A DNA stretch of 35,773 nucleotides from a virus. Made by a program: the position numbers. The stretch is taken from the UHGV virus genome UHGV-0313710. The stretch is one strand, 5' to 3'. Of this stretch, positions 15,001 to 18,000 are shown one piece after another. Within the stretch, counting starts at the first letter, position 1. The number at the start of each line of letters is the position of its first letter.

Positions 15001-18000
15001 GCCGACACAATATCAACCACCCGATAAAGCTTGAGGTTGCTTTCATGCCCCCCTGCAACGGGTAGATTTTGCAGCCTTGCCGCAGCAGTCTGGCGATGTA
15101 CACCTGACAGTGCCGCCAGTTGACTGATATTCAGCGTCAGATTTTTTAACTCTCGATCCATACCCGCTCCAGAATGTTTTAAACATGCATCTTGCGAACA
15201 ACTTTAGGCAAACGGTGTTAGCGATGAACAAAAAACAATCAAAATCGACACCACAAAAATAAAACTACTGTAATATCAATACATTACAGTAGTGGTGATG
15301 ACGAATGAAATTTCAAAAACTAGCCTTTTTCCGCGACGCTCCCGCCCCGTGCCAGGCCACCCCACCGGGAGGACCCGTCAGCCTGACAGCCATGACGAAC
15401 GTCTTATACAGCCCTTGCATGAATGGCATCGGGATAATCCAGAAAGGAATAGCATCGACCCACAAGAATCTGTGTGAGTGTCCTGTTTCTTCCACCCCCG
15501 CACAGGACTGGCGAGCATGAGGGACAACCCCGCGAACCATAACCGCGCTGATGACAGGACTGGCCCGGCTTGTATTGCTTCCAGCCTTCGCTTTTGTGGC
15601 TTTTGCAATAGCCTGACGGATCTGTGGTGGTATTGCGGTAGCCGCGAACACGGCAGGTTTTTGGGGTTCGTGGGGGCATATGTACTCCAATGAAGAAGCC
15701 ACCAACATAGCCTCCTCCATTTATCGTGAAACTATTTTCATCTACCCAGTAATGAATTCTTTGAAGAGTCGAGATCAATACAACTCACTGATGGGAGAGG
15801 CTTGTCTCACGCGTAAGGCAAGTTTCCTGTTTGATTTACTGGACAGTATAGGGGGGCAGAATGCCTTCCTCACTCGAATAACATCAATTACGGAGCTTCA
15901 ACACGGGTCAGTCGTGGTATGGCGGCAGCCGCGAACTCGGCATGCTTTTGAGGTTCGAGGGAGCATATGTACTCCAATGAAGAAGCCACCGACATAGTCT
16001 CCTCCATTCGTCGTGAAACTATTTTCATCTACCCAGTAATGAACTCTTTGAAGAGTTGTAATCAATACAACTCGCTAATGGAGAGGCTTGTCTCACACGT
16101 GAGACAAGCTTCCTGTTTGATTTACTGGACACTATAGAAGGACAGAATGCCTTCCTCACTCGAATCACATCAATTAAGGAGGTTCAACATGTTTCATTCC
16201 ACAAGTCATCAGGCTGTAATTATGGCAGCATCAGTTTGTGCCACAGACCTTTTCCGCTTCACTTTGAGCCTGATTCATTTCTACCTGACCGGCTCGCCTC
16301 TATCTTTCTAATCCCCGATTTATCCAAATTTCACTGCCATAATGCCGACATTCTCTGCCATTGTTGGCTCCGTTTATCCGTTAAAAGGGATATCAGTTAA
16401 GTTATCCCGTGCAGGGTATAAGCCATTATCAAACCCACCCGTAGATAGGCTTTGTAATGGCTACTTCTTCAGAAATGATTCGATGAATTCACGTCGAGGA
16501 TGACGATAGTTCAGAATATCTTCTGGCATCCTCATAAAGCGGTTGTTGCCGTCTTTGGCAGTAACAAAACAGCTGTGAACTCCGCAGACATCCGTTTTGA
16601 TCGTGTCGCTATACTCAAAAAGCAACTGAGCCATCTTCTCTTGCCATTCTGGAGGCATAGCCTCCATGAATACTCGCGGCATCACGCAGAACGACGCATG
16701 CGTAAGACCAAACCACAGTTGCAGGTCTTTACGATATTCTTCATCCATCGTCTTTACCTTTGTTGCAATAAAAAGCCCCGCGAATGCGAGGCTAAATCCT
16801 GGTGTTTGTGATGACTGGCTCTTATCTAAACGCAGCCCCTTACCGCGCGCCAAATGCTCAACTTTAAGCATCAGCAATGAGATGTTTAATCTGGATTCAC
16901 TCCAGAAGTGATCACCACCCTGTCTACAGAACCAGATGTGAAGGATGATGAGTAAAATTATCTCTATCATCGAAGGCATTGCGTCCTGATATATTCCTGA
17001 AGCGTTCTCAGTGCTGTCTGGTCTCTGATGATTCCGTCCCGGATACCGAGAACGTTTCGTCCAGCAACTGGAGAGAGTTCGACGGTGGCATCATTGCCCA
17101 TACCGGAGGCGCTGGAGGTTTCGGCTGAGGATGGCACAGGGCATTTTCCTTTGACGAACACCCGACCACCATTATCAAGCTTGCGCCGAAGAGCATCATT
17201 TTTAGCTTTCGCATCAGCTAACTCCTTCGTGTATTTAGCATCGAGTGCATCAGCAGCACGCTGGCGCTGCTGCATGTCAGTAATGGTGGCGGTCGCCTGC
17301 TTCAGCTCACTGACTTTTTTATCACGCTGTTCTTTATAGGCGATGGCGTTATCACGATAATGATTGACCGCCCACGACAGGCAGACGATGATGCAGATAA
17401 CCAGAGCATAAATAATCGCGGCGACTCTGCTCACTGATCTATCCCCCAACAGGCTAATGCGCTTTCCTGGTCACGACGAATAACTTGCCCATAGCAGTTA
17501 TTTGAACGTATGCGGCAATCGCGCCCACCATCTTTTATCCACCAGCGAATCGCCTCGCATGCGCCCTTACGATCACCGGCATTCAGCCGCTTATAAAACG
17601 TCGACGGGAAACACTTACCGGGGCCAATGTTATAGGGACAAAATGACGCGATACCCGCTTTTTGTGGCTCGGTCAGTGGTACTTTAATATTGCGCTCCAC
17701 CCATGCCAGCGCCTTATCACGCTCAATGGCGTTGACCTGGTCGCATTTTTCCTTCGACAGTTTCATACCGGGAAAAACGGGTTTTCCATCCACCATCGTG
17801 GCACCCCGACAGATGGTCCAGATGCCGGACCCATCGCGGTATGCCGTTGTGTGGTTACCTTCTTTTTCATCCAGAAACTGGTCGAGAATATCAGGCGCGG
17901 GCGCACCGACGGCAATCAGTGCCAGAACGGCAGCCGACAGGCCGTATCTGATTTTTGCGTTCATGGATATTTATCAGGATTTATCGGTTTCTGCCCACGG

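What the first reader, a model, noticed from the sequence alone, without database searches (positions are those of the whole stretch)
15639..16205. Diverged ~287-bp tandem duplication next to cos, with a perfect palindrome in one copy
Two adjacent, clearly alignable copies sit between the lysis genes and cos. Copy B holds a perfect inverted repeat GCTTGTCTCAC-ac-GTGAGACAAGC that has decayed in copy A. Short ORFs on both strands start inside the repeat, but their reading frames are not conserved between copies, so the unit is probably non-coding. It could be a packaging-associated or regulatory element, an RNA gene, or a recombination scar.
Basis: seen in the sequence. Interest (0 to 1): 0.6.

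Follow-up and report, generated by a model that had tools for sequence, protein, structure and literature searches.

The report
Lytic-phage promoter cassette, duplicated, in prophage
The repeated unit is a cassette in a lambda-like prophage that carries promoters for the RNA polymerases of unrelated lytic phages (SP6/K1-5 type and T7 type), aimed at a conserved 40-amino-acid gene, so it may let the prophage respond when such a phage infects.

Summary
Copy A (15617-15903) and copy B (15904-16189) are 88.5% identical, head to tail, between the lysis genes and the HNH remnant/cos/terminase. The same junction occurs in 16 of 5,426 complete E. coli genomes, so it is neither an artefact nor chance.

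Each unit holds the first 21 codons of an HNH endonuclease gene (minus strand) and a plus-strand cassette antisense to the late operon. The cassette is a T7-promoter look-alike, a covarying hairpin, an SP6/K1-5-type promoter, a leader and a strong SD. Copy B's promoter (16120-16140) matches the phage ACG-C91 consensus 21/21 and feeds a 40-codon ORF (16189-16311).

Relatives in Shigella, Klebsiella and Enterobacter temperate phages keep the position, orientation and small ORF (C-terminal pN/pS 0-0.48). Their promoter types differ, and several match podophages known from the same host genus. No podophage checked carries both promoter classes, and the window encodes no such polymerase.

Best reading, inferred and not shown: a silent unit switched on by an invading podophage's RNA polymerase to make a small helical peptide, possibly for defence. 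I found no prior description.

The parts
15617..15903 (+). Copy A of the tandem duplication (287 nt)
   Evidence: Its right end is cut at the A of the small-ORF ATG and joined to HNH codon ~21 of copy B, with 1-nt microhomology.
15904..16189 (+). Copy B of the tandem duplication (286 nt)
   Evidence: It is 0-3 differences per half from the single-copy allele U04, which occurs in the same phage background (L007).
15530..15679 (-). HNH endonuclease remnant: N-terminal 50 codons only, pseudogene. Its first 21 codons (15617-15679) belong to copy A.
   Evidence: Translation compared with the 116-aa HNH of SfIV and 813R8. RefSeq annotates the identical locus as 'HNH endonuclease, incomplete, missing C-terminus'.
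15904..15966 (-). Duplicated fragment of the HNH 5' end (21 codons, MLPRTSKACRVRGCRHTTTDP) at the left of copy B
15776..15798 (+). T7-group promoter look-alike, copy A (CAATACAACTCACTGATGGGAGA)
   Evidence: Scores 24.7 bits on a matrix built from T7's 17 annotated promoters, whose own range is 26.0-39.2. The -4..-1 TATA reads TGAT.
15797..15826 (+). Hairpin, copy A (weakened allele)
15834..15856 (+). SP6/K1-5-type promoter, copy A (ATTTACTGGACAGTATAGGGGGG); predicted +1 at 15851
   Evidence: Scores 28.3 bits on the ACG-C91 promoter matrix (own range 26.9-37.9). The same variant occurs in a single-copy allele with an intact ORF (U13).
16063..16085 (+). T7-group promoter look-alike, copy B, degenerate (CAATACAACTCGCTAATGGAGAG)
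   Evidence: 17.2 bits.
16083..16112 (+). Hairpin, copy B: 13-pair stem with a perfect 11+2+11 palindrome at 16086-16109, followed by CTGTTTGATTT
   Evidence: Flagged as terminator-like on the + strand. Folds at -21.6 kcal/mol, z = -4.9. The stem top is identical to the dispersed ACG-C91 hairpin GTCTCACNNGTGAGAC. Covariation shown.
16120..16142 (+). SP6/K1-5-type promoter, copy B (ATTTACTGGACACTATAGAAGGA); predicted +1 at G16137
   Evidence: 21/21 to the ACG-C91 consensus and 36.2 bits. No other site of 15 bits or more in the window. In 0.99 Mb of prophage loci, all 112 hits of 15 bits or more are the unit's own site variants.
16176..16183 (+). Shine-Dalgarno AAGGAGGT, 5 nt before the ATG. The copy A counterpart (15890-15897) reads ACGGAGCT.
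   Evidence: This is the least variable stretch of the unit.
16189..16311 (+). 40-codon ORF MFHSTSHQAVIMAASVCATDLFRFTLSLIHFYLTGSPLSF, a small helical peptide
   Evidence: It has 40 codons in every intact unit with a recognisable start and in the intact 40-aa database entries. Homologues occur in Klebsiella (38 aa) and Enterobacter phage CobraSix (37 aa, annotated CDS). C-terminal pN/pS is 0-0.48. AlphaFold2 predicts a single helix, pLDDT 81.5. No known family matches.
16250..16350 (-). Relic of the 3' end of an SfIV/P2 LysC-type o-spanin gene, antisense to the second half of the small ORF
   Evidence: The SfIV o-spanin ends ...CNLDKAGIRRIEASRSGRSESGSK, overlapping the ORF. No minus-strand ORF of 30 aa or more lies here in the window.

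Best explanation
The 573-bp block is a tandem duplication that arose once, by illegitimate recombination, and then spread. What was duplicated is a cassette lying between the lysis genes and the packaging genes of a lambdoid prophage, pointing antisense to the late operon.

Read on the plus strand, each unit has five elements in order:
1. a T7-group promoter look-alike;
2. a stable hairpin of the type that SP6-like podophages scatter between their genes, which here also looks like an intrinsic terminator;
3. a promoter of the SP6/K1-5 family of single-subunit phage RNA polymerases;
4. a leader of about 40 nt;
5. a strong ribosome-binding site.

Only the downstream copy still runs into the 40-codon ORF, so the window has two tandem promoter sets feeding one gene.

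Shown here: the anatomy, the homology to podophage promoters and hairpins, the conservation of position, orientation and ORF across genera, and the absence of a cognate polymerase in the prophage.

Inferred: the cassette is silent in a lysogen. It has no sigma-70 promoter, it has a terminator-like hairpin upstream, and it lies antisense to late transcription. It is switched on only when a lytic podophage brings in its own RNA polymerase, and it then produces a small helical, probably membrane-active, peptide.

More speculative: the output harms the invader or kills the cell early (superinfection exclusion or abortive infection), and the duplication simply adds a second promoter set.
For: **Promoter**
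- Copy B is 21/21 to the consensus of the 12 co-oriented ACG-C91 sites. It scores 36.2 bits (own range 26.9-37.9). Copy A scores 28.3.
- In 0.99 Mb of prophage DNA, every hit of 15 bits or more is this site.
- SfIV carries the SP6 version, scoring 32.1 bits (SP6's own range 30.7-35.9).

**Hairpin**
- The stem top is identical to a dispersed podophage repeat: 7 copies of the main allele plus 1 of the other in ACG-C91, and 9 in SP6, against 0.04 expected in shuffles.
- Over 34 distinct copies, 83.5% of cells pair against 71.5% in shuffles (0 of 500 reach it). There are 60 double-sided changes against 25.
- Only the hairpin top and the promoter match the podophage. The 14-nt spacer between them does not.

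**Same place, same orientation, different promoter types**
- L178/L152: a site identical over 21 nt to the SP6 promoter at 14286; a second SP6/K1-5-type site (ATTTACGGGACACTATAGAAG); and a T7-type site whose 14-nt core matches GACTCACTATAGGG exactly.
- CobraSix: 21/22 to sites that recur in Proteus podophages. The matching site is annotated as a promoter in Pm5460.
- L187: 22/23 to sites in 135 Klebsiella T7-like phages.
- Kp4864-1: 24/27 to a site in Berlin/Yepe2-type T7-group phages, annotated as a promoter in Yepe2.

**Chimeric composite**
- T7-like sites lie directly upstream of the hairpin (24.7 bits in copy A, 26.2 in SfIV; T7's own range 26.0-39.2).
- T7 has no SP6-type site above 10.4 bits. 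SP6 and ACG-C91 have no T7-type site above 13.5.

**ORF**
- Length is kept; C-terminal pN/pS is 0-0.48 in all 10 lineage pairs; 8 of 10 identical residues use different codons.

**Context**
- No sigma-70-like promoter was found in 15200-16700.
- No RNA polymerase gene is in the window.
- The core plus ORF is present in 626 of 5,426 complete E. coli genomes, with no annotated feature under the match in nearly all listed records.
Against: - There is no expression, transcription or phenotype data of any kind. Everything rests on sequence.
- Within the E. coli sample the promoter is no better conserved than the neighbouring leader. Several alleles carry changes that may weaken it.
- The T7-like sites in the window lack the TATA at -4..-1 and score below T7's weakest promoter.
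- The N-terminal half of the peptide evolves without constraint (pN/pS 1.45).
- In SfIV-type phages the C-terminal half overlaps a live o-spanin gene on the other strand, which could explain part of its conservation.
- The peptide is only moderately hydrophobic and matches no defence, toxin or holin family.
- Host matching of promoter types is anecdotal and untested statistically. CobraSix (Enterobacter) best matches Proteus phages.
- My E. coli sample was partly gathered with exact patterns next to the promoter.
- I could not read the SP6 and K1-5 genome papers, so earlier mention of such sites cannot be excluded.
Confidence: 0.5

Rival explanations
1. The hairpin and promoters are neutral relics of past recombination between podophages and lambdoid phages. 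They are carried along in a frequently exchanged linker at a module boundary, and the duplication is a further neutral scar.
For: The region is a mosaic junction. The HNH remnant lies next to a lambda-type terminase, and there is a relic o-spanin. Alleles recombine freely. The promoter is no more conserved than the leader within E. coli. Some sites are degenerate. Homology to the podophage is only about 60 nt.
Against: At least five promoter types occupy the same position and orientation in different temperate lineages, and each matches real podophage sites. T7-type and SP6-type sites sit side by side, which neither podophage class checked offers. Similarity is confined to the functional motifs, while the spacer differs. 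The downstream ORF is under purifying selection across genera.
Confidence: 0.2
2. The cassette mimics a podophage replication origin or packaging signal. In T7, as I recall, promoters placed after the RNA polymerase gene serve as the primary origin. On this view the prophage region would be replicated or mobilised by the invading phage, which is piracy rather than defence.
For: In SP6 and ACG-C91, two of the hairpin-plus-promoter pairs lie directly after the RNA polymerase gene. The cassette has tandem promoters and lies next to cos and the terminase. That T7's primary origin consists of promoters phi1.1A and phi1.1B is from my own knowledge.
Against: The best podophage match is the gp19-gp20 spacer, not the post-polymerase pair. 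A conserved, strongly ribosome-bound ORF argues for a protein output. No podophage terminal repeat or packaging sequence was seen.
Confidence: 0.07
3. The element acts on the prophage's own late transcript (minus strand). The hairpin would be an RNA processing or stability site, or a control element for HNH and terminase expression, and the promoter similarity would be incidental.
For: The late operon must read through the unit. The minus-strand RNA also folds (-18.4 kcal/mol, z = -5.4). The unit abuts the HNH start codon. In the inner stem, G.U counts do not favour either strand (5 against 6).
Against: A 21/21 promoter match, and matches to other podophage promoter types in other lineages, cannot be incidental. 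Homologous cassettes occur without an adjacent HNH gene. Overall G.U pairs favour the plus strand, 48 against 17. The U-rich tail exists only on the plus strand.
Confidence: 0.08
4. One reading: the palindrome is a DNA binding site for TerS or a host factor, and part of the packaging region near cos.
For: The site lies about 400-900 bp from the inferred cos. The symmetric changes between alleles would also keep a dimer-binding palindrome intact.
Against: The same hairpin family is spread through podophage genomes, between genes far from their ends. The lower stem covaries freely and uses G.U pairs, as RNA does. The cassette occurs beside three unrelated TerS types: DUF1441, P27-family and the L178 type.
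Confidence: 0.03
5. The podophage polymerase starts at the cassette and reads on leftward through the prophage. It would transcribe leftward genes such as the repressor, exclusion or excision genes, so the small ORF would be incidental.
For: Phage-type polymerases ignore most host terminators (my own knowledge). The cassette points away from the packaging genes and toward the early region in every lineage examined.
Against: Several kilobases of antisense late and replication genes lie in between. The ORF immediately downstream is conserved and has a strong SD. No downstream target was identified.
Confidence: 0.05

Closest known systems
Middle/late promoters and upstream intergenic hairpins of SP6-group podophages (Molineuxvirinae: SP6, K1-5/K1E/ACG-C91, Proteus PM85 group), especially the gp19-gp20 spacer
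   Same: The promoter sequence is the same (21/21 to the ACG-C91 consensus). The hairpin top (GTCTCACNNGTGAGAC) is the same. The order is the same: hairpin, about 14 nt, promoter, leader, SD, ATG.
   Different: It sits in a temperate lambdoid genome that encodes no such polymerase. It is antisense to that genome's own operon. Its stem is longer, it is preceded by a T7-type site, and it drives a gene with no podophage homologue.
T7-group promoters (T7 class II type; K11/Przondovirus type in the Klebsiella relatives)
   Same: The specificity region is shared: AATACGACTCACTA is identical in SfIV, and the 14-nt core GACTCACTATAGGG is matched exactly in L178. L187 matches Klebsiella T7-like phage sites 22/23.
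   Different: In the window the -4..-1 TATA is altered and scores fall below T7's natural range, so activity is doubtful.
Lambdoid 'morons' such as bor and lom: autonomous transcription units inserted in the late region (my own knowledge)
   Same: The site is the same, between Rz and cos, where bor/iss lies in 813R8 and O157 prophages. The orientation opposes late transcription, and the unit is small and self-contained.
   Different: Morons use host sigma-70 promoters and are expressed in the lysogen. This unit has no sigma-70-like promoter and carries heterologous phage-polymerase promoters instead.
Abortive infection and exclusion by small membrane proteins (lambda RexAB; hok/sok exclusion of T4), and engineered phage-inducible suicide cassettes in Lactococcus (my own knowledge)
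   Same: The proposed logic is the same: an otherwise silent, small, membrane-type effector is released by an event specific to infection.
   Different: The trigger here would be direct recognition of a promoter by the invader's own RNA polymerase. No antitoxin, sensor protein or known defence family is present. The function is untested.
Trans-activation between phages, such as P2 and its satellite P4 (my own knowledge)
   Same: One element carries promoters that answer to another phage's transcription machinery.
   Different: In that case helper and satellite cooperate through activator proteins acting on the host polymerase. Here a temperate phage carries promoters for the complete polymerase of unrelated lytic phages.

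Membership tests
SP6/K1-5-group single-subunit RNA polymerase promoter | A 21-23-nt sequence scoring within the range of the phage's own promoters | tested here: met
   Copy B scores 36.2 bits and copy A 28.3, against the ACG-C91 range of 26.9-37.9. Copy B is 21/21 to the consensus.
SP6/K1-5-group single-subunit RNA polymerase promoter | Directed at a downstream gene, with a leader and an SD | tested here: met
   The predicted +1 at 16137 is 39 nt before AAGGAGGT and 52 nt before the ATG at 16189.
SP6/K1-5-group single-subunit RNA polymerase promoter | Lies in a genome that encodes the cognate polymerase | tested here: not met
   No ORF in the window is an RNA polymerase. The large ORFs are tape measure, capsid-protease, portal and terminase. 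It is therefore an orphan promoter.
SP6/K1-5-group single-subunit RNA polymerase promoter | Transcribed by the polymerase | not testable with these tools
   This needs in vitro transcription or infection RNA-seq.
T7-group promoter | Score within the range of T7's 17 annotated promoters, with TATA at -4..-1 | tested here: inconclusive
   Window copy A scores 24.7 and copy B 17.2, against T7's 26.0-39.2, and the TATA is replaced by TGAT or TAAT. SfIV scores 26.2. The L178 core is 14/14.
Dispersed intergenic hairpin of SP6-like podophages (annotated as a rho-independent terminator in Pm5460) | Conserved stem top GTC(T/C)(C/A)AC-NN-GT(G/T)(A/G)GAC with a covarying lower stem | tested here: met
   The copy B stem top matches 16/16. 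Covariation: 83.5% paired, 0 of 500 shuffles reach it, 9 of 13 pairs change on both sides.
Intrinsic (rho-independent) terminator, plus strand | G+C-rich stem followed by a T-run | tested here: met
   The consensus scan lists both copies on the + strand only, with 5 T in the 8 nt after the stem. Termination itself was not tested.
Type I toxin-antitoxin system | Small hydrophobic toxin plus a cis- or trans-encoded antisense RNA antitoxin | tested here: inconclusive
   The peptide is a predicted single helix with GRAVY 0.8. There is no Rfam match in 15000-17000, no sigma-70-like promoter for either RNA, and no family match. I do not file it as a member.
Known anti-phage defence systems (PADLOC) | Match to a catalogued defence protein model | tested here: not met
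   No hits for the peptides or the neighbouring ORFs.
HK97-type terminase-associated HNH endonuclease gene | Complete ORF of about 116 aa with the C-terminal HNH motif (DHIIP...CWPCH) | tested here: not met
   Only the N-terminal ~50 residues align. The frame then diverges and stops. RefSeq calls it a pseudogene.
Tandem duplication by illegitimate recombination | Head-to-tail copies, one shared novel junction, and microhomology at the breakpoints | tested here: met
   The breakpoints share a single A. All six distinct upstream-copy sequences share the junction. The 80-nt junction is identical in 16 genomes, including a different phage.
cos / terminase recognition element | Constant association with one packaging module, with sites near the cleavage point | tested here: not met
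   The cassette occurs with GpA/DUF1441 terminases, with P27-family TerS plus HNH, and with other terminases. It lies more than 400 bp from the inferred cos.
Known RNA families (Rfam 15) | Match at or near the gathering score | tested here: not met
   The best hit inside 15000-17000 has E = 0.71 and lies outside the unit.

The most novel reading that the evidence does not exclude
Temperate phages of Enterobacteriaceae keep a 'polymerase trap' at the moron site between lysis and packaging genes. It is an array of orphan promoters for the RNA polymerases of the lytic T7-like and SP6-like phages that attack their host. Promoter types are swapped over evolutionary time to follow those phages. The array is insulated by a terminator hairpin and drives a small membrane peptide that aborts or excludes the infection. 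This would be a way of sensing infection that needs no sensor protein, because the invader's own polymerase reads the alarm gene. The duplication in this window would be a step in building multi-promoter arrays.
Probability: 0.3. Interest if true: 0.92.

Novelty: new variant of a known kind. Interest (0 to 1): 0.8.

Why it matters
If the cassette really is read by invading podophage polymerases, it is a natural case of one virus carrying the promoter of an unrelated competitor in order to detect it. The known routes to defence activation need sensor proteins, and this one would not.

It would give a function to an unannotated element in about 11.5% of complete E. coli genomes (626 of 5,426), and to relatives in Shigella, Klebsiella and Enterobacter phages.

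It bears directly on phage therapy, because K1-5/K1E-like, SP6-like and Klebsiella T7-like phages are therapy candidates. Lysogens that carry the cassette might resist them.

It also makes a clear, cheap prediction, testable with commercial SP6 and T7 polymerases.

Even if it turns out to be neutral, it documents repeated sequence exchange or convergence between lytic podophages and lambdoid prophages at one locus.

Tried and rejected
- **Tandem Repeats Finder:** found nothing. The repeat finder was needed.
- **Rfam:** no family in 15000-17000.
- **Sigma-70 promoter scan:** 0 sites in 15200-16700.
- **ORFs inside the unit:** the plus-strand MYSNEEAT ORFs and the minus-strand extension of HNH are not conserved in 813R8 or SfIV, so I rejected them as genes.
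- **Known prophage small RNAs:** AsxR, AgvB and PasA-D lie at the Q/pR' moron site, not here.
- **One genome per bacterial species:** a scan for the promoter gave only two hits, both at contig ends. These are probably vector sequence.
- **L171:** an AT-rich contig with a promoter-like match. I set it aside as probably unrelated.
- **L178 dual-promoter cassette:** no match in E. coli genomes.
- **Small peptides:** no match in Pfam, NCBIfam, PHROGs or PADLOC, and no homologue in any lytic phage by tblastn.
- **Podophage homology:** no homology between the unit and SP6 or ACG-C91 outside the ~60-nt hairpin-promoter module, by blastn or tblastx.
- **Literature:** searches on phage polymerase promoters in prophages returned nothing relevant. 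The SP6 genome paper is not held.
- **Strand test by G.U counts:** only mildly informative, and even in the inner stem.
- **39-aa L178 peptide:** too short for the protein search.
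Full report
**1. The observation**

The sequence holds two head-to-tail copies. The repeat finder reports offsets of 287 and 286 nt at 88% identity. With the breakpoints mapped, copy A is 15617-15903 and copy B is 15904-16189. They share 254 of 287 columns (88.5%) with one 1-nt indel.

The perfect palindrome GCTTGTCTCAC-ac-GTGAGACAAGC is at 16086-16109. With G.U pairs the stem reaches 13 pairs (16083-16112). Copy A's counterpart has one mismatch and one wobble pair and folds much less well (-13.8 against -21.6 kcal/mol).

The duplication is real and inherited. 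The 80-nt junction is 100% identical, in one piece, in 16 complete E. coli genomes from humans, a pig, a probiotic product and street pavement. In my sample, 10 of 113 loci that carry the promoter-like site have two sites 286/287 nt apart.

**2. Context**

The window is a lambdoid prophage whose late operon runs on the minus strand. It carries a DNA methylase, holin, YdfR, lysozyme and Rz (16967-19718). Below the unit lie a DUF1441 small terminase (14667-15161), a GpA-type large terminase (12565-14667), and then portal, capsid-protease and tape measure.

Mapping the right end of phage mEp460 puts cos near 15187; this is an inference.

The ORF that starts at 15679 on the minus strand (MPPRTPKTC...QRGYGS) is the N-terminus of an HK97-type HNH endonuclease. 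Relatives have 116 residues. Here only about 50 align before the frame is lost, and RefSeq calls it a pseudogene. The lambda-type packaging module, which as I recall needs no HNH, has evidently replaced an HNH-dependent one by recombination inside the HNH gene (about 15530-15547).

**3. What was duplicated**

Each unit consists of the first 21 codons of HNH plus the 224 nt (copy A) or 223 nt (copy B) upstream of it.

- **Breakpoints.** The right breakpoint falls on the A of a plus-strand ATG. The left one falls in HNH codon ~21. The two share a single A.
- **One origin.** All six distinct upstream-copy sequences have the same junction. Strain XH993 has it too, although its phage has an intact HNH, a P27-type TerS and a different lysis cassette. 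So the event happened once and spread by recombination.
- **Not decay in place.** The two copies are not one sequence decaying. Copy A is 1-5 differences (left half) and 4 (right half) from single-copy alleles. Copy B is 0-3 differences from the single-copy allele found in the same phage background. A and B differ from each other at 33 positions. The divergence is allelic mosaicism.
- **Single-copy form is the rule.** It is seen in SfIV, 813R8, O157 prophages and many others.

**4. The unit is a podophage-type promoter cassette**

A sensitive search with copy B hit, besides temperate relatives, unannotated intergenic DNA of K1E/K1-5-like podophages. In phage ACG-C91 the gp19-gp20 spacer reads GTCTCACACGTGAGAC, then 15 nt, then ATTTACTGGACACTATAGAAG, then a leader, SD and ATG.

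*Promoter.* ACG-C91 has 12 such 21-mers, all on the coding strand and mostly just upstream of genes. SP6 has 10 around the well-known SP6 promoter ATTTAGGTGACACTATAGAAG.

- Window 16120-16140 equals the ACG-C91 consensus 21/21.
- On a matrix built from the phage's own sites (range 26.9-37.9 bits), copy B scores 36.2 and copy A 28.3.
- SfIV's version scores 32.1 on the SP6 matrix (range 30.7-35.9).
- In 0.99 Mb of prophage DNA, both strands, all 112 hits of 15 bits or more are this site. The window has no other.

*Hairpin.* It belongs to a dispersed podophage family. ACG-C91 has 7 copies of GTCTCACNNGTGAGAC within two mismatches, plus 1 copy of the other allele. SP6 has 9 copies of GTC(C/T)AACNNGTTGGAC. 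Shuffles give 0.04. Most copies lie between genes.

- The ACG-C91 copy at 9054-9079 matches the window's extended stem 25/26.
- These two alleles are exactly the two main alleles of the prophage units.
- Over 34 distinct copies, 83.5% of cells pair against 71.5% in shuffles (0 of 500 reach it). There are 60 double-sided changes against 25, and all shifted registers fall to 43% or less.
- G.U pairs favour the plus strand overall (48 against 17) but not in the inner stem.
- The depositors of Proteus phage Pm5460 annotate the equivalent hairpin as a rho-independent terminator. The scan also flags the window's hairpins as terminator-like on the plus strand only.

*T7-like site.* Directly upstream of the hairpin there is also a T7-promoter look-alike. 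On a matrix built from T7's 17 annotated promoters (range 26.0-39.2 bits), the scores are:

| Site | Sequence | Bits |
|---|---|---|
| SfIV | CAATACGACTCACTAATGGGGAG | 26.2 |
| Window copy A | CAATACAACTCACTGATGGGAGA | 24.7 |
| 813R8 | CAATACAACTCACTAATGGAGAG | 22.4 |
| Window copy B | CAATACAACTCGCTAATGGAGAG | 17.2 |

These are by far the commonest and best-matching hits in 1 Mb of prophage DNA. The TATA at -4..-1 is altered, however, so activity is uncertain.

**5. The same design in other temperate phages, with other promoter types**

| Temperate phage | Likely host | Promoter-like sites | Small ORF |
|---|---|---|---|
| L178 / L152 | Enterobacter/Klebsiella-like | Cassette 1: hairpin plus ATTTAGGGGACACTATAGAAG, identical over 21 nt to the SP6 site at 14286. 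Cassette 2 (L178 only): ATTAACGACTCACTATAGGGGGA (core matches T7 14/14), hairpin, then ATTTACGGGACACTATAGAAG | 39-codon hydrophobic ORF after cassette 2 |
| CobraSix | Enterobacter | Hairpin plus AATTAGAGACCACTATTGAAG, 21/22 to sites recurring 3-4 times in Proteus podophages; the matching site is annotated 'promoter' in Pm5460 | Annotated 37-aa CDS |
| Kp4864-1 | Klebsiella | Two hairpins plus TATTAAGACTCACTATTAGGAAG, 24/27 to a site in Berlin/Yepe2-type T7-group phages | 38-aa ORF |
| L187 | Klebsiella-type | At the same position, AATTAGGGCCCACTATAGAGACC, 22/23 to sites in 135 Klebsiella T7-like phages | 38-aa ORF |

In L178, CobraSix and L187 the gene maps show the cassette between the lysis genes and the terminase (in CobraSix, the genome end) and antisense to the late operon. 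Kp4864-1 has no annotation; there the cassette is antisense to an o-spanin relic.

The T7 genome has no SP6-type site above 10.4 bits. SP6 and ACG-C91 have no T7-type site above 13.5. The side-by-side arrangement is therefore a chimera found only in the temperate phages. It is not a fragment of any one podophage.

Between window and podophage, only the hairpin top and the promoter are shared. The spacer between them differs. This looks like retention of functional motifs rather than a recent transfer of one block.

**6. The downstream gene**

At the right edge of copy B, AAGGAGGT lies 5 nt before an ATG (16189) that opens a 40-codon ORF ending at 16311.

- The SD/ATG stretch is the least variable part of the unit.
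- The ORF has 40 codons in every intact unit with a recognisable start, and in the intact 40-aa database entries.
- The Klebsiella and CobraSix versions share the C-terminal motif F-x-L-S-(L/V)-(I/A)-H-(F/Y)-x-(L/I)-T-G-x-P-L.
- Between window and CobraSix, 8 of the 10 identical residues use different codons.
- pN/pS of this block is 0-0.48 in all ten lineage pairs, with pS up to 0.9.
- The N-terminal half is unconstrained (1.45 for window against SfIV).
- In SfIV-type phages the last 17 codons overlap the end of a live o-spanin gene on the other strand. In the window that gene is a relic, yet the overlapped stretch is the most conserved of all.
- AlphaFold2 gives one helix over residues 2-34 (pLDDT 81.5).
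- No family, defence model or lytic-phage homologue matches.
- Copy A has lost the ORF because of the way the duplication was cut. In most lineages its SD reads ACGGAGCT.

**7. How it most likely works**

Shown: the anatomy and the homologies above. No sigma-70-like promoter in the region. No phage-type polymerase in the window.

Inferred: the gene is silent in a lysogen. It lies antisense to late transcription and is shielded from upstream read-through by the terminator-like hairpin. It is transcribed only when an SP6/K1-5-like (perhaps also T7-like) phage supplies its polymerase. The product is a small helical peptide.

A role in excluding or aborting the infection fits three things: the moron-like site (bor/iss sits here in 813R8 and O157 prophages), the diversity of promoter types, and the logic of kin protection. 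It is not tested. In this window the duplication places two promoter sets in tandem. Copy A has the better T7-like site. Copy B has the better SP6-type site and the better hairpin.

**8. Rivals**

- A neutral recombination relic (0.2).
- An origin or packaging mimic that pirates the invader (0.07).
- A hairpin acting on the prophage's own late RNA (0.08).
- Long leftward read-through into the prophage (0.05).
- A TerS or host-factor binding site near cos (0.03).

The relic view is weakened most by the chimeric T7-plus-SP6 arrangement, by the repeated change of promoter type at one position, and by selection on the ORF.

**9. Prevalence and novelty**

The cassette core with the ORF (16060-16311) is at least 80% covered in 626 of 5,426 complete E. 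coli genomes. Nearly all listed records have no annotated feature under the match.

A scan of one genome per bacterial species found this promoter type only at two contig ends, which look like vector sequence. Literature searches found no description. I could not read the SP6 and K1-5 genome papers.

I class it as a new variant of known kinds (moron; trans-activation between phages). The bolder reading, a polymerase-triggered defence trap, is given separately.

**10. Caveats**

- All evidence is from sequence.
- The E. coli sample is closely related and was partly gathered with exact patterns that flank the promoter.
- The match between promoter type and host is anecdotal.
- Several promoter alleles may be weak.

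Noticed in passing
L178:8560-8800 (minus strand): A second kind of cassette in an Enterobacter/Klebsiella-like prophage. It has a T7-type site (ATTAACGACTCACTATAGGGGGA), an SP6-type hairpin, an SP6/K1-5-type promoter (ATTTACGGGACACTATAGAAG), an SD and an unrelated 39-aa hydrophobic ORF (MFMPEMISLATALVELAKPIVEVICHWLKLEINKRYGVN). It lies between Rz and a relic o-spanin. It has no match in E. coli genomes and no known family.
   Followed up: partly
L185:600-955 and L187:2790-3117: Two related Klebsiella-type temperate phages have different promoter-like sequences at the same position: T7/Berlin-like in one and K11/Przondovirus-like in the other. The flanks and the small ORF are homologous. This looks like a switch of promoter specificity at one site.
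   Followed up: partly
L120 (ACG-C91) 569, 6510, 6691, 7491, 9059, 10275, 15129, 31564; L121 (SP6) nine sites: SP6-like podophages carry a dispersed hairpin with a sequence-conserved top and a covarying lower stem, mostly just after stop codons. Pm5460's depositors call one a rho-independent terminator. Its real role (terminator, processing site or protein site) is not settled here.
   Followed up: partly
window 15530-15547: A module junction. Homology to HNH-type phages ends here, and homology to the right end of lambda-like phage mEp460 begins. This leaves a 50-codon HNH stump beside a GpA/DUF1441 terminase, which as I recall does not need HNH.
   Followed up: partly
window 15264-15293 (minus strand): A 13-pair A+T-rich hairpin followed by TTTATTTTTG lies between the HNH stump and the inferred cos/TerS. 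The scan flags it as terminator-like. It also gave a weak chance-level Rfam hit (ES036, E = 6.9).
   Followed up: no
window 16189-16250: The first 20 codons of the small ORF are far more variable than anything around them (pN/pS 1.45 for window against SfIV, no indels). The SD and the last 20 codons are almost invariant. This could be diversifying selection or local mosaicism.
   Followed up: partly
window 16461-16979 (minus strand): A 172-codon ORF of unknown function (PHROG 3527/11822) lies between Rz and the cassette. RefSeq annotates only its last 96 codons, plus an Rz fragment as a pseudogene at about 16830-16979. This part of the lysis region looks rearranged.
   Followed up: no
L178:9023-9139 (minus strand): A 38-codon ORF with a strong SD (TTGGAGGTCACATG; MKQSLLLLLVCRCADSFNDIVHLICLLIAKHYGILQYF). 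It runs antisense into the 3' end of a relic o-spanin and stops at the same TTCTAATCCCCG as the window's ORF. It may be a diverged member of the same small-gene family.
   Followed up: no
E. coli genome hits: Carriers of the cassette include K1-type and other extraintestinal strains (IAI39, a cerebrospinal-fluid isolate, avian isolates) as well as O157:H7. I did not test for an association with the K1/K5 capsules that K1-5/K1E-like phages target.
   Followed up: no
L171:1224-1244: An AT-rich metagenomic viral contig has ATTTAGTTGACACTATAGAAG in an unrelated context. It is probably unrelated or a chance match.
   Followed up: no
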